A stretch of DNA of 25,502 bases from a virus (Duplodnaviria > Heunggongvirae > Uroviricota > Caudoviricetes), in the IMG/VR virus record IMGVR_UViG_2734482545_000002; one strand, given 5' to 3'. The notes below the pieces were generated by a model. It worked only from the letters and a program-made list of their open reading frames with translations. It searched no databases and had not been told where the DNA came from. This document shows, piece by piece, positions 1 through 8,921 of the stretch. The first letter of the stretch is position 1. Each line of letters begins with the position of its first letter. A program made the translations under genes and the position numbers.

Positions 1-28
1 AGGGACAGCTGATAGAAACAGAAGCCAC
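1..28 (-). CDS. insA: IS1 InsA, N-terminal fragment (GTG start at 28..26, continues off window)
   Basis: Minus-strand reading from 28: GTG GCT TCT GTT TCT ATC AGC TGT CCC = VASVSISCP, matching the InsA N-terminus as I recall it. Truncated by the window edge, not necessarily in the genome. Confidence 0.6.
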
Positions 29-83
29 TGGAGCACCTCAAAAACACCATCATACACTAAATCAGTAAGTTGGCAGCATCACC
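1..83 (-). mobile_element. IS1: IS1 insertion sequence, terminal 83 bp (left inverted-repeat end); rest of element lies beyond the window's left edge
   Basis: Reverse complement of 1-83 reads GGTGATGCTGCCAACTTACTGATTTAGTGTATGATGGTGTTTTTGAGGTGCTCCAGTGGCTTCTGTTTCTATCAGCTGTCCCT, which I recognise as the IS1 left end including the terminal inverted repeat (window 61-83) and the start of insA. Recognition is from memory. Confidence 0.85.
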
Positions 84-832
84 AGCCTTCTTGAGGCTAC
101 CACCTGTTTTCAGGTGTCATTCAGACGTGATTTGCCCCAGATTGGGAAAGCACGCTTTTTTCTCAGCTATCGTCCTCTTATTTTGCCGTTACATTTCTTT
201 TTGCATTCTAATGATTAATTTACAATAATAATATCGGTAATTATTGAGTAATAATAAATTAATTATTGCAAATGTAATTTAATTCCATCTTCGCGTTATA
301 TTCCAATCTTTAATCTCCGCATGGAACAAGTTGCATGCGTGACTATATTAAGACGACTTATAACCACCAAAACATTTGCTTTGCAAGCAAAAACAGTGAC
401 CATTGACTCTAAGAAAATTCCGATCTATTGTTAGGGTCATCAAAGTTACTTAACAGTATTCCGAAATGAAAATACAAAGCAAGCTAATTGTCTTATTAAA
501 CATTATTATTGCATTTATATTATTTGAGCTTTTAGCTCAAAAATTTGGTTTGAGTACATTATTTTAAAGCAAGATAAACAATATCGGGCACTCTAGTTTT
601 TATAATTAACAATTAAACGTCCATAAAATGTTATTTACTTTTCTTCGCTATTGTCATATCTTAATATAGTGGCTTACGCCACTCTACTTTCATCACATTT
701 TGTACGTTTATGTACTCGCCATGAAGCTCTTTCATGGCGATTTTTTATTCTTAATCCAAGAACATACTCCCTACCTATAGCAAAATCACTTTTTTAACAA
801 AAGAATAACGTATTTAGGTAATCATTACGAAT
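84..832. other. AT-rich non-lambda spacer/accessory segment between the IS1 end and tfa; no ORF of 60 aa or more on either strand
   Basis: Visibly AT-rich (roughly 30% G+C by eye, not computed) against the GC-rich structural genes. Does not match the sequence I recall downstream of lambda tfa. The supplied ORF track has no ORFs here. Confidence 0.6.
717..747 (+). terminator. Rho-independent terminator candidate, plus-strand orientation
   Basis: cgccatgaa (717-725) / ttcatggcg (731-739) form a 9-bp GC-containing stem with loop gctct, followed by a tttttt tract at 741-746. On the minus strand the hairpin is preceded, not followed, by the U tract, so the orientation is plus. Confidence 0.5.
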
Positions 833-1414
833 TTACCCTATAGGTGCTACTGGCCATTCAATATCCGGTGCAGTTGATGTATCAACACGGTTCAGCAACA
901 CCCGATACTTTTTCCAAGCTTCCAGCAACAAGGTTTCTTTCTCCGTTGCGATCTCCAGATCCACAGCATCCTGAAGCGGCGCTATATGCTCACTGGCTAC
1001 CTGCATCAGGCTGTTTTTTGTTTCTTCCGCCTCCCGGATCCGGAACAGTTTTTCTGCTTCCGTATCCTTCACCCAGGCTGTGCCGTTCCACTTCTGAAAC
1101 TCCCCTTCCGGGGATAACCAGGTGACATTTTCCGGTAATGAGCCGAGTTCAGAAATAAATAACGCGTCGCCGGAAGCCACGTCATAAACCGTTTTACCCC
1201 GATGATCTTCAACGAGATGCCACGATGACTCATCACTGTTGAAAACAGCCACGAAACCAGCCGGAATATCTGGCGGTGCAATATCGGTACTGTTTGCAGG
1301 CAGACCTGTATGAGGCGGAATATATGCGTCACCTTCACCAATAAATTCATTAGTTCCGGCCAGCAGGTTATAAATTTTTATGGTCCGTGCTTGTTCACTC
1401 ATTCTGAATGCCAT
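833..1414 (-). CDS. tfa: Tail fiber assembly protein (lambda Tfa homologue), 193 aa
   Basis: [27 protein letters not shown]... is near-identical to lambda Tfa as I recall it, except the last few C-terminal residues. ATG at 1414..1412 overlaps the stf stop (ATAATG arrangement as in lambda). Confidence 0.93.
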
Positions 1415-4400
1415 TATGCGAGCCTCACAATATAGTTAAATGCGATGTTTTTGACGGTGTTTTCCGCGTTACCAGCAGCGTTAACGGTGATGGTGTGTCC
1501 ATGTGAACCAATCGCAACAGAGTGCGTATGAGCACCAATACCGACAGTATGCGCGTGTGCACCCGCAGATGCTGCTGTGCCGGACAGTGAGTGTGTATGG
1601 TTTCCTTCTGAAGATGATTTACCTACCCATTGGGAGGTGCCACTGGTTAATGAGCCACTGATACCAACCTGATTAGTCCCGCTAACTTGAGTACTCCCTG
1701 CCGGAAACATTCCAGTAGGTTGACTCCCGCTATTCGTTCTGGGCCCAGTCTGACTATGTTGGTGGGCCCCAGCTGAACTTGTAGAGCCGCTCAGACTGTG
1801 CGTATGCGCCCCGGTGTTATTCGTGGATTTAGTGCCGTAATCAAACGACGATGTGGTTTTCGTCCCCAAATCCGTACTGGATGCGCTGGCGCTGTGGGTG
1901 TGCGATTTAATGCCATCCTGTTCCTGAGACAATACGGCACGACCACTGGCGGGCTTGCCCTTAATCGTCCAGCCACGCATATCAGGGATCACGCCTGACG
2001 GATAAGCGGCTGCAAGTTTCGGGTAAGCAGATTTGTCAAAAGTCTGCCCCTGCATCAGGGCATAACCAGACGGAACGGTATCTGATGGCCACGGGATTGG
2101 TGCACCGACTGGATAAAACTCTGCAGGAGGATGAGCCGAGGTGTAAAGCTGCGCCCACGGCGACCAGTTTGCGTCGGTCGTATCCCGTCGTGAACGAATA
2201 AATGCCGGAGCATGAGCACCGCTTGTACCACTCCAGCCGATGAGTAACTCACCTTCGCCAACGGCTGTCATCCCTTTCAGGTGAATGATATTTCCATACG
2301 CTGTTGGATATCCGTTGTTATACACCTCGTATAACTCAAGACCTGCTGCCCCCTGCGTATTGTCTGTCAGCGCGGCTACCCGACCTTTTGAAGCCAGATT
2401 AACTGATGATACTGCTGTTCCACCTGACGGTAGCGCCCCGATCTCTGATGCCGTTGGCTTATTTCTGGAGTTATAGTCCCTTCGCCAGCCAGGTGAATAA
2501 TCTGTTCCGTGATTAATATAGGTAAACTGGGCGTTGGTTGTTCCGCCACCGCTGGATGTGGTCGGAGTGGTAATGCGGATCGTCATCGCTGACTTTATCC
2601 CCATTACTTCAATGACAGCTCCGGCGAGATGAATATTACCGCAGCCAGTATCAGTAATGATTTTATTATTGCCATAAGACCAGGAACCCTTGCACATCCA
2701 GTATGGATGGTTAAATGCTCCCTGAGAATCCAGCCACTCGATAAACTGTGCAGTCGTCCAGTTTCCTGTTGTTGTGCTTACTGACCCACCGAAGGCACGG
2801 CAGGCACCAATATTTTTCGTAAAGGTGTCTTTGCCAGGGATATCCGCACCGTTCTGATCTTTCTGCAGACGTTTCTCAGCATTGTCATTGGCTGCTTTTA
2901 CTGCCTTTGGCGTTGCCGCCAGCGTTTCAGACGTGCTGTTGGTCGCGCTGCTTAGCTGGATTATCCCTTTCTGTGCTGTCGTTGCATCCTGTGCGGTGTA
3001 TTTCCCGTTAGCCAGGTCATACGCGGCCTTAACGGCTTTTGGTGTTGCCGCCAGTGACTCGGAAGTGCTGTTAGTCGCACTACTGAGCTGTACTATCCCC
3101 TTTTTCGTCGTGCTCGCATCCTCAAGCGCCACGGCGGATGCAATATCCTCTGCCCGTTTTGCCGCTGTCTCAGCGCGCGTTGCTGCAGATTCCGCCGTAC
3201 TTTTGCTCTGAGCTGCTGCCGTCGCACTACCAGCAGCCTCTGTCGCCTTCGTGGATGCCGTCGTGGCGCTGCCCTTCGCTGCTGACGCCTGTCTGGTCGC
3301 CTCATCTTTTGAAGCAGACGCCGATGATGCCGATGACGCCNNNNNNNNNNNNNNNNNNNNNNNNNNNNNNNNNNNNNNNNNNNNNNNNNNNNNNNNNNNN
3401 NNNNNNNNNNNNNNNNNNNNNNNNNNNNNNNNNNNNNNNNNNNNNNNNNNNNNNNNNNNNNNNNNNNNNNNNNNNNNNNNNNNNNNNNNNNNNNNNNNNN
3501 NNNNNNNNNNNNNNNNNNNNNNNNNNNNNNNNNNNNNNNNNNNNNNNNNNNNNNNNNNNNNNNNNNNNNNNNNNNNNNNNNNNNNNNNNNCTGTTTTTGA
3601 GCCTGCCGCAGCTGAGGCACTCTGTCCCGCTGCCGTTTCAGAAGACCTGGCGTTCGTCTCGGACGTTTTGGCCGCCTTCGCAGAATTTGCAGCCGCCGTC
3701 GCCGAGGAAGCTGCGCTACTGGCGCTTGATGATGCGTTCGTTTCTGATGATTTTGCCGCCTCTTTTGAAGCCGACGCATCCCGGGCTGAGGTGGCAGCTT
3801 CTGACGCTTTCGTGGTCGCGGTGGATGCAGAAGTGGCTGCTGATTGTTGTGACGCTGCCGCATTCGTTTCTAACGTTTTCGCCGCACCGGCACTGGTAGC
3901 CGCCGCGCTTTTTGAGGACTCTGCAGCGGCAGCACTTTTTGAGGCTTCAGTGGCCTTTGTTGATGCCGTTCCTGCGCTGGAAGACGCTGACTGAGCCGAC
4001 GAAGCGGCCTGTCCGGCTGACGTGCTGGCTGCACGTGCTGAATCTGCAGCATCAGTCGCATGGGTTGCCGCCTCACGGGCTGATGTGCTGGCATCGCTGG
4101 CTGATTTCTTCGCGGCTGCCGTGTTCTGTGCCACCGCGGACGCGTTACGCGCCACCTCTTCCACCATCAGCTCAAAACGGCGCAGTGCCTCCGGACGGGC
4201 ATCATCCTCCGTCATGGCACCGAGAAAATCATTCAGCGTACCGGGTCGGGAATCTTCATACACGGTGATGGTCCCGGCATGTGACGGCGGGAATCCTTCC
4301 ACCAACAGAATAACGCTGTACTGACCGTACTCAACGTCCATGCTGTAACGCCCGGCTTCATCCGGATTTTCTGAGGCCAGCGTGTTCACCACCACCGTGG

Positions 4401-4491
4401 TGCTGTTACGTTTTGCTTTCAGCTGGATTGTGCAGTTCTGTACCGGTTTTCCTGTGCCGTCTTTCAGTACACCTGAAATCTTTACTGCCAT
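1414..4491 (-). CDS. stf: Side tail fiber protein (lambda Stf family), about 1025 aa including a 250-nt N run; enlarged relative to lambda Stf
   Basis: N-terminus [26 protein letters not shown] and C-terminus ...[29 protein letters not shown] match lambda Stf. Ala/Ser/Thr-rich low-complexity stalk and His-box motifs ([21 protein letters not shown]) are present. Start taken at ATG 4491..4489 (MAVK) rather than the upstream GTG at 4497 used by the track. Confidence 0.9.
2885..3115 (-). repeat. Imperfect direct repeat of ~75 bp inside stf, encoding two copies of the ~25-aa motif GI(V/I)[11 protein letters not shown](S/T)[11 protein letters not shown]
   Basis: Two similar nucleotide blocks (around 2893-2970 and 3040-3110) are visible; the protein shows the motif twice about 45 residues apart. 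Consistent with the known phage tail-fibre repeat motif. Confidence 0.7.
3341..3590. other. Run of 250 N inside stf (assembly gap or masked sequence)
   Basis: Literal n characters. The stf reading frame is maintained across the run as given. Confidence 0.99.
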
Positions 4492-4500
4492 ATTCACCCC

Positions 4501-4529
4501 ACAAAAAAGCCCGCCTGAACCGGCGGGCT
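4501..4529 (-). terminator. Rho-independent terminator downstream of lom (minus strand)
   Basis: Minus-strand read: agcccgccg gttca ggcgggct hairpin followed by tttttt (complement of the A-run at 4503-4508). Same position as the terminator-like hairpin in lambda between lom and stf. Confidence 0.7.
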
Positions 4530-4556
4530 GTCATAACACTGTGTTACCTGGCTAAT

Positions 4557-5364
4557 CAGAATTTATAACCGACACCCACGATGAAACCGTCAGTGCGCCA
4601 GAGACGTGTTGCTGTGGCGACCGTCATCACTTCNNNNNNNNNNNNNNNNNNNNNNNNNNNNNNNNNNNNNNNNNNNNNNNNNNNNNNNNNNNNNNNNNNN
4701 NNNNNNNNNNNNNNNNNNNNNNNNNNNNNNNNNNNNNNNNNNNNNNNNNNNNNNNNNNNNNNNNNNNNNNNNNNNNNNNNNNNNNNNNNNNNNNNNNNNN
4801 NNNNNNNNNNNNNNNNNNNNNNGAGCCTTCATAAGCAATATCAATGGCCACGGATTCGGTCGGGTTAAACTGCACGCCAGCTCCCCACGCCAGAGACGTG
4901 TTGCTGTGGCGACCGTCATCACTTCCGGTCAGCACGTCGTGCGTTTTCCCCTTGTTGTCAGTTACGCGGAGATAATCCCCGGAGAAAGTCGACACACGGC
5001 TGTAAGCCACACCCGCCATCGCATACGCGCTGAACCATTCATTCACGCGCACAGACGGCCCCGCCATCACGCTGAACCAGCGGTTACGCACGGAATCTTC
5101 ATGCCAGCGGGTATCGCTGTAACGGGTCAGCTGGCGATTCTTGTCTCCTGCATAGCTGAATGACGTCACCAGCCCCAGCGTATCCGTAAACTCATAACGG
5201 TATTTCACGTTAATCCCGTTCAGATCATCACTGCCGGGAACGTTGGTCCGGGCATGAAGATACCCCGCGCTCAGCGTGGACTGATGTTCAGACGCCCATG
5301 CAGGCGCACCGGATACGGCCAGGCAAATGGCTGCGGACAAAATGGCTGCACAAACTTTACGCAT
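4557..5364 (-). CDS. lom: Outer-membrane protein Lom (Ail/Lom family beta-barrel), interrupted by a 189-nt N run
   Basis: N-terminus MRKVCAAILSAAICLAVSGAPAWASEHQSTLSAGYLHARTN... and C-terminal TDGFIVGVGYKF-stop (4592..4557) match lambda Lom. The span is ~187 nt longer than lambda lom, about the size of the N run. Confidence 0.9.
4634..4822. other. Run of 189 N inside lom, flanked by a duplicated ~38-bp block
   Basis: cgccagagacgtgttgctgtggcgaccgtcatcacttc occurs at 4596-4633 (immediately left of the N run) and again at 4887-4924. Confidence 0.95.
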
Positions 5365-5386
5365 AATTACCTCTCGCTTTTCTGCA

Positions 5387-5413
5387 ATAAAAAAGGCGTC
5401 ATTCCTGACGCCA
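5387..5413 (-). terminator. Rho-independent terminator downstream of J (minus strand), upstream of lom
   Basis: Minus-strand read: ggcgtcagg aat gacgcc hairpin followed by ttttttatt (complement of aataaaaaa at 5387-5395). Confidence 0.65.
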
Positions 5414-5434
5414 TTTATTGGGGTTATAAATATT

Positions 5435-8400
5435 TCAACGAATACTGATGCCGGAAGCCGCTTTTTTGGTCACAATCACCGTACAGTCGGTGATATTGCC
5501 TGCCCCCTGATTGCCTTTCTGGAAAATCTTAAACTCCAGAGTGACGCTACCACCACCACTAGGCATATCAATAACTGCACTGTAACTACCGGGAATGGCC
5601 CCTTTAGTTTCTCTGGATGCGATTAATACGCCGTTTTTGCGAACTTCAAAACCATAACCCGTGTATCGCGTGCCTCCTGGGTTATTTCCGCTCCCCGGAT
5701 CGTCATACGCTATACCGTTAAAAATAATGGGCGGAATAATAATCTGGCGGTCAAAGTTATGATCATCGCTTATGGTGACTGTAACCGTCCCGTTTGGTGT
5801 TTCCGTGTTACCCCACGTACCAGCCTGTTTCGGAAATGATTTGGATACAGCTTTAACGAAGTCACCTCTGACCTGAGTCGCCTCCAGCATGCCCTTAATC
5901 GTACAGTTTTCATTTACCGTGACATTGTTGAGCGTCCCGGCGTTCGCATTCACACTGCCACTGATATCCGCATTTTTAGCGGTCAGCTTTCCGTCCGGAG
6001 TCAGGGAAAATGCCGATGGATTTCCACCGCTGGTAATGGTGGGGGCCGTCAGGCGTTTCAGGAACACGTCGTTCATGAATATCTGATCGCCCTGACCAAC
6101 AAACATCGGTTTTGTGTTGCCATTCGCAGGATTAACCATCGCAATCCTGTCCGCCGCCAGCAGCACCTGACTCTGCATGCCGTCAGGGGTGTTCTCAATA
6201 CCGGCACCAATACCCGCGATATAAAGGCGTCCGTCCTGCATCTGCTGCAGCTTCACAGCCCACATGCTGTTCAGGTTATTATTTGTATCAACCTGAACCT
6301 TCTGTATCTGCTGAATTGCCGCACTCTGGTCTTCCAGTTTCTTATTGACGGTCTGCGTGATTTCATTGCTGACATCCGTAATGGACGTCCTGATTTCAGC
6401 CAGGTCAGGCGCAAGCTGACCGTTATCAATCTGCGTCCACAGCTCCTGAGCCAGATGGGTTTTCCCTATCTCGCCTTTGAAAAAATCCAGATAACCGGAT
6501 GCATCATCACTCGGCTGACCAACAGCCTCCACGAATGCCGATTTGCCAACGGTGTTCACACTGCGGATATAAAAGTAATAATCATGGCCCGGTTTGATAT
6601 TGATACTGGCGGCTATCCAGTACAGCGCCGTGCCAAGATAGCGTGCTGTGGTTTCAACCTGCCTGATATCCGCAATCCGCTTTTCCGAGAACCAGAACTC
6701 AAACTGTACCGTCGGATCATAAACCGCAAGATGCGGCGTGGCGGTTATCTGAAAATAGCCCGGCGTCAGCTCAATCCGCGACAGCGCTGCCGGTGCGGCA
6801 ATCCGGAACGATACCGACGCCGGATCGCCCTGCTGCCCCCACGCATTTACTGCCCGGACTGTCAGCCTGTAGTTCCCCAGCGCCAGTTGTGTGAAGCGGT
6901 AAGTGGTTTCCGTCGTCCGGGCCGTGCTGACCAGNNNNNNNNNNNNNNNNNNNNNNNNNNNNNNNNNNNNNNNNNNNNNNNNNNNNNNNNNNNNNNNNNN
7001 NNNNNNNNNNNNNNNNNNNNNNNNNNNNNNNNNNNNNNNNNNNNNNNNNNNNNNNNNNNNNNNNNNNNNNNNNNNNNNNNNNNNNNNNNNNNNNNNNNNN
7101 NNNNNNNNNNNNNNNNNNNNNNNNNNNNNNNNNNNNNNNNNNNNNNNNNNNNNNNNNNNNNNNNNNNNNNNNNNNNNNNNNNNNNNNNNNNNNNNNNNNN
7201 NNNNNNNNNNNNNNNNNNNNNNNNNNNNNNNNNNNNNNNNNNNNNNNNNNNNNNNNNNNNNNNNNACCGTCAGGAACACGGCTCACTTTTACCTTCACGC
7301 CGTCGGTGACGGACTGGACCTCCACGCTGACCGGATTCCCCTGCCCGTCAACCAGGCTTATCAGCGTGGTGCCGGAGGATGGCAGCGTGATTTCACGGTC
7401 GAGCGTCAGCGTCCGGGTCTGGCTGTTCACCGCCAGCACGCGCCCGCCGGTGCGGATACCGGCATAGTCATCATCGCAGATTTCAATGACATCGCCCGGT
7501 ACATGACGAAGCCCTTCAGCACCCACGCTGAAATCCACGGTCTGCGTCTCCAGCAGTTCCGTTTTAATCAGCCACAGCCCGGCGCGGTGTGCCTGCCCCC
7601 GGCTGGTACAGCCAAAGGCATCCATCTTCGTGACGTTACGACCGTAACGGACAATGGCCTGCGTATCCTCCACAAGCTCTGTCGCCGTCTCCCAGCCGTT
7701 ATCCGGGTCAATCCAGTTCACCTCAACGGCATTATGGCGGTCTTTCAGGGCGCTGAAACTGTAGCGGAACGGCGCGCCATCATCCGGCATCACCACATTA
7801 CTGCGGTTATAGGCCCACACCTTATCCGACTGTCGGTCCTGCACGAACGTCAGCGTCTGCCCGTTCCATACCGGCATACAGCGCATCGCCGAGCAGAAAT
7901 CACTGAGCACATCCCACGCCTTGCGCTGTGTGGTCAGCCAGGCATTACAGGTGATGCGCGGCTCCGTGCTGCCAAAGCCGTCCGGCACCGACTGGTCACA
8001 GTACTGGCCGATGACATACAGCGCCCATTTATCCACATCTGCCGCACCAAGACGTTTCCCCATGCCATAGCGCGGATGGGTCAGCATATCCCACAGACAC
8101 CAGGCCATGTTGTTGCTGTATGCCGGTTTTAACGTTCCGTCCCAGATACCGCTGTATTGCCGCGTCTGCGGATTATAGTTCGACGGCACCTGCAGAATGC
8201 GCCCGCGAAGATGATAATTACGGCTCACCTGCTGGCTGCCGAACTGCTCCGAATCCACCTGTACGCCGACCAGTGCCGTGTTCGGGTAGCACTGTTTCAC
8301 ATCGATGATTTCGGTGTATGACGACCAGAGCGTTTTGTTCTGCAGCTGGTCTGTGGTGCTGTCCGGCGTCATTCTGCGCATCCGGATATTAAACGGGCGC

Positions 8401-8921
8401 GGCGGCAGGTTATCCACCACCACCGAGGCCAGATACTGCGAGGTGGTTTTGCCCTTAATGGTGATGTCTTTTTCCGTCACCCAGCCACCGTTACGCTGTA
8501 TCTGAACCAGCAGGCGGACTTCCGACGGATTCCTGTCTCCCTTTGAGGTGGTTTCCACCAGTGCCTGTACACCGAAGGTAAAGCGCAGACGGTCGATGTT
8601 TGCCGACGTGATGGTCCGGGTGATCGGCGTGTCATATTTCACTTCCGTACCCAGCACCGTCTCGGAGCCGGAGGATTCAAACCCCTCCGGCGGTGACTGC
8701 TCCTGCTCACCTGCCCGGAACACCACCGTGACGCCGGAGATGTTGGTATTCCCCTCATTGTCCAGCACCGGCGTACTGTTCAGCAGCACGCTTTTTAATC
8801 CATCCACCGGACCTTCAACCGGCCCTTCACTGATGGCATCGATCACACTCAGCAGCTGCGTGGACTTCAGGTTGTCCTTCGCTTCGCGCGGGGTATGCCC
8901 CTTACTGCTGCCTTTACCCAT
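5435..8921 (-). CDS. J: Tail tip / host specificity protein J (central tail fiber), about 1130-1160 aa; split into two track ORFs by a 331-nt N run
   Basis: N-terminus [45 protein letters not shown] matches lambda J. Track ORFs 6771..8921 and 5435..7279 are the N- and C-terminal parts in different frames across the N run. The C-terminal ~150 aa diverges from lambda J. Confidence 0.9.
6935..7265. other. Run of 331 N inside J
   Basis: Literal n characters. The J frame changes by +1 across the run, so the stated gap length cannot be exact. Confidence 0.99.

What the first reader, a model, noticed from the sequence alone, without database searches (positions are those of the whole stretch)
1..83. 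IS1 end abutting the prophage tail-fiber region
Bases 1-83 are the reverse complement of the IS1 terminal sequence, with the inverted-repeat end exactly at 83. IS1 has therefore inserted just beyond the tfa-distal accessory region and may have deleted or disrupted whatever originally lay there (in lambda, the b-region towards att/int). That affects whether the prophage is intact and where its real boundary is.
Basis: partly seen in the sequence, partly recalled or inferred. Interest (0 to 1): 0.55.

Follow-up and report, generated by a model that had tools for sequence, protein, structure and literature searches.

The report
IS1 end inside prophage b-region
The first 83 bases are the end of an ordinary IS1 insertion sequence lying in the non-essential arm of a lambda-like prophage of Shigella sonnei and E. 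coli; it is an old, widely inherited copy that has deleted a few hundred bases beside it, which is routine for IS1.

Summary
**Observation: confirmed.**
- Window 1-83 matches the left (IRL/insA) end of an annotated 768-bp IS1A at 83 of 83 bases.
- Every IS1-free relative starts matching the window exactly at base 84.

**The window's own far side of the IS1 cannot be read.** The window starts inside the IS1, and every identical draft contig I found also breaks inside it.

**Closest complete genomes.**
- Eight encode exactly this Tfa and match window 1-3340 at 99.9-100%. One of them is confirmed as Shigella sonnei 75/02.
- All eight have a full IS1 at this junction and no target-site duplication.
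- Seven of the eight have the far side 15 nt from the start codon of a frameshifted AraC-family gene. Next come IS3 scars, intS and tRNA-Arg (argW).

**What is missing.** 97 E. coli genomes and free phages such as ev099 have the same region uninterrupted. Against them, this lineage lacks 741 bp of non-coding b-region.

**How common it is.**
- The same right junction occurs in 79 of 5,426 complete E. coli genomes.
- Its left breakpoints are nested: 550, about 741 and 1,505 bp are missing.
- In STEC409 the far side is htrE instead, apparently through a large inversion.

**Conclusion.** The IS1 lies inside the prophage, about 2.8 kb from the argW end. It is not the prophage boundary. This is a known element showing known behaviour, so interest is low.

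The parts
1..83 (-). Left (IRL/insA-proximal) 83 bp of an IS1A-type insertion sequence. The rest of the element lies off the window's left edge.
   Evidence: 83/83 identical to the annotated IS1A end in L001. Complete 768-bp copies sit at the same junction in genomes 99.9-100% identical to window 1-3340.
61..83 (-). IRL, the 23-bp terminal inverted repeat (GGTGATGCTGCCAACTTACTGAT on the minus strand). The element tip is at base 83.
   Evidence: Read directly from the sequence. The 23-bp extent is established IS1 knowledge; PMC12428005 describes imperfect inverted repeats of about 30 bp with the promoter PIS1 partly overlapping IRL. Homology to IS1-free relatives starts at base 84.
1..28 (-). 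First 28 nt of insA (GTG start at 28->26), transcribed leftwards, away from the phage genes and in the same direction as tfa and stf.
   Evidence: Translation VASVSISCP. The annotated IS1 CDS in L001 starts at the position equivalent to window 28.
84..92 (.). Nine bases (agccttctt) flanking the IS1 tip. They are not duplicated at the other end of the element in any complete copy examined.
   Evidence: Flank tables. A chimeric query for the simple-insertion left junction found 0 genomes.
84..832 (.). AT-rich spacer: the tfa-proximal remnant of the phage b-region. It is 99% identical to the same stretch in free phages ev099, mEp332 and PhiR70_1.
833..1414 (-). Tail fibre assembly gene tfa, which anchors the 'prophage tail-fibre region' part of the finding.
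   Evidence: PF02413 Caudo_TAP, E 4.6e-44. Annotated as tail fiber assembly protein in relatives.

Best explanation
Bases 1-83 are the IRL end of a complete, chromosomal IS1A copy lying inside the b-region (non-essential arm) of a lambda-like prophage of the Shigella sonnei / E. coli type.

**Shown**
- The IS1|agccttctt junction is inherited, not a fresh insertion in this strain. It is shared by many E. coli and by the genomes that match the window.
- The copy has no target-site duplication.
- Compared with uninterrupted relatives, DNA on its far (IRR) side is missing.
- Across lineages the IRL junction stays fixed while the IRR-side breakpoint steps outwards.

**Inferred**
- IS1 transposed into the AT-rich stretch between the AraC-family gene and tfa. 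IS1-mediated adjacent deletions then removed neighbouring DNA from the IRR end, by intramolecular replicative transposition or an equivalent insertion-plus-deletion event.
- In the window's own genome the far side is most likely ...CATCCACCCAATT|IS1, 15 nt upstream of the AraC start codon. In that case 741 bp are missing.
- The copy also serves as portable homology for larger rearrangements.

**Consequence**
- The IS1 does not mark the prophage end and does not interrupt any late gene.
For: **Identity and position**
- 83/83 match to IS1A.
- Homology to IS1-free relatives starts at base 84.

**Spread of the junction**
- 79 of 5,426 complete E. coli genomes.
- 12 IMG/VR contigs.
- 3 metagenome contigs.

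**Uninterrupted form**
- AraC, 441 bp, tRNA-Ser relic, 109 bp, agccttctt, spacer: full length in 97 genomes; the 25 listed are 99.3-99.6% identical.
- Three free phages hold the relic-to-tfa stretch at 99%. The full order, from int through AraC to tfa, was checked in ev099.

**IS1 form**
- 73 genomes have AraC flank, IS1 and spacer in one piece.
- The left junction gccaataag|IS1 is in 101 genomes.

**Nested left breakpoints with the same right junction**

| Missing | Example |
|---|---|
| 550 bp | L001 type |
| about 741 bp | L005 and the S. sonnei type |
| 1,505 bp | ETEC1746 |

F404 has also lost 118 bp on the right side.

**Duplication**
- None in any copy at this junction. The independent IS1 in L025 has a perfect CTGAACATG duplication.

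**Genomes matching the window**
- Eight complete genomes encode the exact Tfa and match window 1-3340 at 99.9-100% (5 of the 8 with no mismatch). All have a full IS1 there, and 7 of 8 have the same left flank.
- One of them is CP019689, S. sonnei 75/02, where the locus lies in PHAST region 75/02pp2.

**Mechanism background**
- Absence of a duplication is attributed to adjacent deletion or IS-by-IS recombination (PMC11708052).
- IS1 is 768 bp and transposes mainly replicatively (PMC12428005).
Against: - The window stops inside the IS1, so its own far flank is unobserved. One of the eight closest complete genomes (LR213458.1, L040) has a fimbrial usher gene there instead.
- Neither possible simple-insertion intermediate was found among the 5,426 genomes: duplication at agccttctt or at gccaataag. 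So the order of events is not established, nor whether there were one or two steps, nor which junction is the original.
- The left junction is in more genomes (101) than the right junction (79). The right junction is therefore not uniquely the stable one.
Confidence: 0.85

Rival explanations
1. Two direct-repeat IS1 copies once bracketed the 550-741 bp, and homologous recombination between them left a single copy without a duplication. No transposase-driven adjacent deletion was involved.
For: It gives the same end product. PMC11708052 lists IS-by-IS recombination as a frequent cause of missing duplications. This region does attract IS1: independent copies sit in L025 and L026.
Against: It needs more events. 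No genome with two IS1 copies flanking this stretch appeared in the junction searches. Each nested left breakpoint would need its own additional insertion.
Confidence: 0.1
2. In the window's own genome the far side of this IS1 is not the AraC region but an unrelated locus, because IS1-by-IS1 recombination or an inversion has moved it. The late region would then be detached from the rest of the b-region.
For: STEC409 has htrE 5' part|IS1|spacer at 1.41 Mb, and its partner AraC|IS1|htrE 3' part at 3.66 Mb. LR213458.1 (L040) has a fimbrial usher next to the IS1. Six of the 79 E. coli carriers lack the AraC flank.
Against: Seven of the eight complete genomes that match the window at 99.9-100% over bases 1-3340 have the AraC-proximal flank.
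Confidence: 0.1
3. A recent simple IS1 insertion in this strain, with an intact 9-bp duplication and nothing deleted.
For: The window alone cannot exclude it. IS1 normally makes 9-bp duplications, as the L025 control shows.
Against: The identical junction is shared by 79 E. coli genomes and by the genomes that match the window, never with a duplication. The predicted left junction occurs in 0 of 5,426 genomes.
Confidence: 0.03
4. The IS1 end is an assembly artefact: a repeat wrongly joined to the end of the contig.
For: The window and all near-identical draft contigs end inside the IS1, as is typical where assemblies break at repeats.
Against: The same junction, with a full 768-bp IS1, is present in dozens of complete, closed genomes.
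Confidence: 0.01

Closest known systems
IS1 (IS1A type) of E. coli K-12 and Shigella
   Same: The terminal 83 bp are identical, including IRL and the start of insA. Full 768-bp copies at this junction in relatives carry insA/insB' with the programmed frameshift.
   Different: Nothing in the element itself differs. This copy lacks the 9-bp duplication of a simple insertion.
IS-mediated adjacent deletions. For IS1 this is the classic nested-deletion behaviour (Reif and Saedler 1975, cited from my own knowledge); the general case is reviewed in PMC11708052.
   Same: One IS end stays fixed while a nested series of breakpoints extends from the other end. The IS is retained and there is no duplication.
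   Different: This is inferred from natural variants across genomes, not observed as events. A single-step insertion-with-deletion or IS-by-IS recombination cannot be excluded.
b-region of lambdoid phages ev099 (NC_049953, Radostvirus), mEp332 and PhiR70_1
   Same: The spacer between the IS1 tip and tfa is 99% identical. These phages show the uninterrupted state.
   Different: They have no IS1. ev099 integrates through the lambda att core next to its own int. The S. sonnei-type prophage is instead joined to intS at argW.
Shigella sonnei 75/02 prophage region 75/02pp2 (CP019689, 414,035-462,932; PMC5447701)
   Same: L039 from this chromosome matches window 1-3340 with no mismatch and encodes the exact Tfa. 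The locus falls inside this PHAST region, which the paper labels 'intact' and lambda-like.
   Different: The paper's main text does not mention IS1 (0 occurrences). The window is not proven to come from this strain: there are 5 mismatches in 4888-6934.

Membership tests
IS1 family insertion sequence | Characteristic terminal inverted repeat (IRL GGTGATGCTGCCAACTTACTGAT...) | tested here: met
   Window 61-83, reverse-complemented, is this sequence. The whole of 1-83 matches the annotated IS1A end at 83/83.
IS1 family insertion sequence | insA reading frame starting just inside IRL and encoding the zinc-ribbon/HTH InsA protein | tested here: met
   Only 9 codons lie in the window (VASVSISCP). 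In loci that match the window at this end, the full gene hits PF03811 Zn_ribbon_InsA and PF12759 HTH_Tnp_IS1.
IS1 family insertion sequence | Element of 768 bp with a second inverted repeat, and insB' (DDE) reached by a -1 frameshift | not testable with these tools
   The window ends 83 bp into the element. In the eight complete genomes that match window 1-3340 at 99.9-100%, the copy at this junction aligns over IS1 positions 1-768 at 99.1-99.2% and hits PF03400 DDE_Tnp_IS1. RefSeq annotates 'programmed frameshift' in E. coli carriers.
Simple (unrearranged) IS1 insertion | Direct duplication of about 9 bp of target at both ends | tested here: not met
   The flanks are agccttctt on one side and gccaataag, cacccaatt or others on the other, in all complete copies. 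The positive control L025 has CTGAACATG on both sides. This could not be tested in the window's own genome.
Lambdoid prophage late / tail-fibre module | tfa (Caudo_TAP) followed by side tail fibre, lom, J and the head and terminase genes in lambda order | tested here: met
   tfa hits PF02413. Relatives are annotated with Lom, J, tape measure, portal and terminase.

The most novel reading that the evidence does not exclude
The IS1-bearing b-region segment (IS3 scars, AraC gene, IS1, spacer, tfa) is a cassette that has moved between prophages sitting at different chromosomal sites: lambda attB next to ybhB in many E. coli, and argW/intS in S. sonnei, STEC409, F404 and ETEC1746. The resident IS1 would act as a built-in deletion and recombination engine. 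It would strip the b-region step by step, remove the promoter of the AraC-family cargo gene and seed large chromosomal inversions. The uninterrupted form also holds a fossil serU attachment junction, which would record an earlier capture of host DNA by the phage lineage.
Probability: 0.3. Interest if true: 0.3.

Novelty: already known. Interest (0 to 1): 0.12.

Why it matters
The value is mostly practical.

- **Contig end.** It explains why this contig ends where it does: draft assemblies of these genomes break at this IS1.
- **Boundary.** The IS1 should not be read as the prophage boundary. In the closest complete genomes, phage-derived DNA continues for about 2.8 kb to argW.
- **Lineage marker.** The fixed junction together with the nested left breakpoints could serve as a simple marker for this prophage module in E. 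coli and Shigella.
- **Biology.** It adds nothing new. IS1 abundance in Shigella, duplication-less copies, adjacent deletions and IS-mediated inversions are all well described.

Tried and rejected
1. **Finding the window's own upstream sequence.**
   - The exact junction 40-mer is absent from the GTDB representative genomes.
   - All IMG/VR and metagenome contigs that carry it and resemble the window break inside the IS1.
   - The AraC|IS1 junction pattern is absent from IMG/VR.
   - Only the exact-protein look-up of Tfa reached complete genomes.

2. **The tRNA-Ser 3' fragment, 109 bp from the target, as the prophage attachment site.** That would have meant the IS1 event removed attR.
   - This holds for the serU lysogen L002.
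   - I rejected it for this lineage. In phage ev099 the fragment lies inside the b-region, and the functional lambda att core sits next to int.

3. **Searches for the two possible simple-insertion intermediates.** Both found nothing.
   - H296, which looked like one, is an independent IS1 insertion in the AraC 5' end with its own duplication.

4. **An apparent frameshift splitting the tail-tip gene J.** I rejected it as evidence of a defective prophage.
   - The gap is a run of 331 Ns in the window. Relatives have 342 nt there.

5. **A base-by-base identity count against the S. sonnei-type loci.** It was meaningless beyond the first N run, so I redid it with BLAST.

Full report
**The observation**

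Window 1-83, read on the minus strand, begins GGTGATGCTGCCAACTTACTGAT and runs into GTG GCT TCT GTT TCT ATC AGC TGT CCC. It matches, at 83 of 83 bases, the end of the 768-bp element that RefSeq annotates as 'IS1-like element IS1A family transposase' in E. coli MLI023K1 (L001 5316-6083).

This is the IRL/insA end. The insA start codon is at window 28->26, and the nine codons in the window translate to VASVSISCP.

Three IS1-free relatives start to align with the window exactly at base 84 (alignment A2).

Between the tip and tfa lies a 749-bp AT-rich spacer with GC of 0.27-0.34. tfa occupies 833-1414 on the minus strand and hits PF02413 at 150 bits.

**Where the window comes from**

- No complete RefSeq E. 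coli genome is identical. The best match is 97% over the first 2.5 kb.
- The junction 40-mer is absent from the GTDB representative genomes.
- It is present in 12 IMG/VR contigs and 3 metagenome contigs. All of those that resemble the window break inside the IS1.
- Looking up the exact Tfa protein found eight complete chromosomes, plus many draft contigs of about 25 kb.
- The eight chromosomes match window 1-3340 at 99.9-100% (five with no mismatch), and 3591-4633 and 7266-7689 at 100%.
- One of them, CP019689, is Shigella sonnei 75/02. The locus lies in PHAST region 75/02pp2 (414,035-462,932), which PMC5447701 labels 'intact' and lambda-like.
- I did not confirm the organism of the other seven.

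The window is therefore the S. sonnei-type version of this prophage. It most likely begins at a contig break caused by the IS1 repeat.

**What lies beyond the IS1**

All eight complete genomes have a full-length IS1 at this junction (positions 1-768, 99.1-99.2% identity). In seven of them its IRR end abuts ...TAGTTGCCATATCATCCACCCAATT. That point is 15 nt upstream of the start codon of an AraC-family regulator gene, which is frameshifted in these genomes.

Further left come IS3-family fragments, a complete intS, tRNA-Arg(CCT) (argW), yfdC and mlaA. The tRNA is about 2.8 kb from the far tip of the IS1.

The eighth genome (LR213458.1, L040) has a fimbrial usher gene next to the IS1 instead.

**The uninterrupted state**

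I built a hypothetical ancestor: AraC, 441 bp, a 62-nt tRNA-Ser 3' fragment, a 109-bp arm, then agccttctt and the spacer. It occurs full length in 97 complete E. coli genomes, and the 25 listed are 99.3-99.6% identical.

The relic-to-tfa part also occurs at 99% in the free phages ev099, mEp332 and PhiR70_1.

In ev099 the order is xis, int, lambda att core, IS3 fragments, AraC, relic, spacer, tfa. AraC and the tRNA-Ser fragment are therefore part of the phage b-region.

Alignment A1 shows the lambda core TTAGTATAAAAAAG. It is flanked by the int-side arm in ev099 and by ybhB-side chromosome in E. coli lysogens. In those lysogens attR lies about 1.95 kb beyond the IS1.

The IS1 is thus internal to the prophage, not its boundary.

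**How common the junction is, and what varies**

| Feature | Complete E. coli genomes (of 5,426) |
|---|---|
| Window's right junction (IS1 tip|agccttctt) | 79 |
| Left junction gccaataag|IS1 | 101 |
| Both junctions one IS1 apart | 73 |
| Uninterrupted ancestor | 97 |
| Simple insertion with duplication at agccttctt | 0 |
| Simple insertion with duplication at gccaataag | 0 contiguous |

In ev099 coordinates the target is at 4126. Copies that keep this right junction have the following left breakpoints:

| Left breakpoint | Missing | Where seen |
|---|---|---|
| 3575 | 550 bp | The common E. coli form |
| about 3384 | about 741 bp | L005 and the S. sonnei type |
| 2620 | 1,505 bp, all of AraC | ETEC1746 |

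- F404 has lost DNA on both sides: left breakpoint 3327, right breakpoint 4244.
- In STEC409 the junction's IS1 and a partner IS1 lie in opposite orientation about 2.25 Mb apart. They split htrE, and about 786 bp of htrE is missing. This fits a large inversion.
- None of these copies has a duplication.
- An unrelated IS1 in the AraC 5' end of B-JRPT-4119 has a perfect CTGAACATG duplication. This shows the check works.

**Mechanism**

One IS end stays fixed. A nested series of breakpoints extends from the other end. The IS is retained and there is no duplication. This is the signature of IS-mediated adjacent deletion. PMC11708052 lists adjacent deletion and IS-by-IS recombination as the usual causes of missing duplications. 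PMC12428005 describes IS1 as 768 bp, with PIS1 overlapping IRL, InsA acting as repressor, InsAB' made by a -1 frameshift, and mainly replicative transposition.

- Shown: the junctions, the missing DNA, the nesting and the lack of duplication.
- Inferred: that transposase-driven deletion produced them, rather than recombination between two former copies or a single-step insertion-with-deletion.
- Not resolved: which junction is the original one.

insA is co-directional with tfa, and my scan found no minus-strand terminator in the spacer. Late-operon read-through into the IS1 is therefore possible. This is untested.

**Consequences for the prophage**

The lost DNA is non-coding. It comprises the AraC upstream region, the tRNA-Ser relic and the 109-bp arm. 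No late gene is touched.

The window's ORF table suggested a split J gene. That is an artefact of a 331-N run. The window has three such runs, in stf, lom and J.

The window contains no evidence that the late region is defective. It cannot speak to the early region.

**Verdict**

The feature is a known element showing known behaviour, already annotated in public genomes. Interest is low.

Noticed in passing
window 3341-3590, 4634-4822, 6935-7265: Three runs of N (250, 189 and 331 bases) lie inside stf, lom and J. ORFs called across them are unreliable, and the apparent two-frame split of J is caused by the third run. Where I measured the true length in a relative (L035), it differs from the run length: 256 nt for the first run and 342 nt for the third.
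   Followed up: yes
window 466-567 (+), with 403-431 and 716-740: A 33-codon ORF encodes a hydrophobic peptide (MKIQSKLIVLLNIIIAFILFELLAQKFGLSTLF). It has a sub-threshold match to the small stress-response membrane protein YncL (NF000537, E 1.3e-5, 25 bits against a cut-off of 35). A promoter-like site precedes it and a strong plus-strand terminator-like hairpin (11-bp stem plus T run) follows it, convergent with tfa. It may be a small cargo gene of the phage b-region.
   Followed up: partly
window 873-1071 (-): There is a full-length Rfam match to IS009 (RF02111, 218 bits, gathering score 117). It lies entirely inside the tfa coding sequence, so the 'sRNA' family here coincides with a conserved part of a tail fibre assembly gene.
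   Followed up: no
L021 (phage ev099) about 3680-4125; L020; L002 5553-6000; L017 5117-5455: The uninterrupted b-region contains what looks like a fossil attachment junction. It has about 340 bp matching the chromosomal yodB-serU flank, a 62-nt tRNA-Ser 3' fragment and a 109-bp phage arm. This matches the real end of a serU-integrated relative (OSUCMP42NDM). It suggests an earlier capture of host DNA by the phage lineage. The segment is deleted in the window's lineage.
   Followed up: partly
L018 and L019 (E. coli STEC409, 3.66 Mb and 1.41 Mb): The IS1 at this junction and a second IS1 in opposite orientation separate the two halves of htrE, about 2.25 Mb apart. The arrangement is AraC|IS1|htrE 3' part and htrE 5' part|IS1|spacer-tfa, with about 786 bp of htrE missing. 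This is consistent with a large IS1-associated chromosomal inversion.
   Followed up: partly
L035-L042, AraC region (locus 8115-8857): In the S. sonnei-type genomes checked (L035, L036, L039, L041, L042) the AraC-family gene beside the IS1 is frameshifted: residues 1-162 and 138-247 are in different frames. Only 15 nt remain upstream of its start codon. It is intact in the E. coli relatives (248 codons).
   Followed up: partly
L001 3579-3662; L035 (window orientation) 2939-3022: The ev099/attB-type b-region carries the last 84 nt of an intS-like integrase gene next to the IS3 scars. In S. sonnei the same sequence is the 3' end of a complete intS at argW. So the b-region and the argW island share ancestry across this point. 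I did not determine which arrangement came first.
   Followed up: partly
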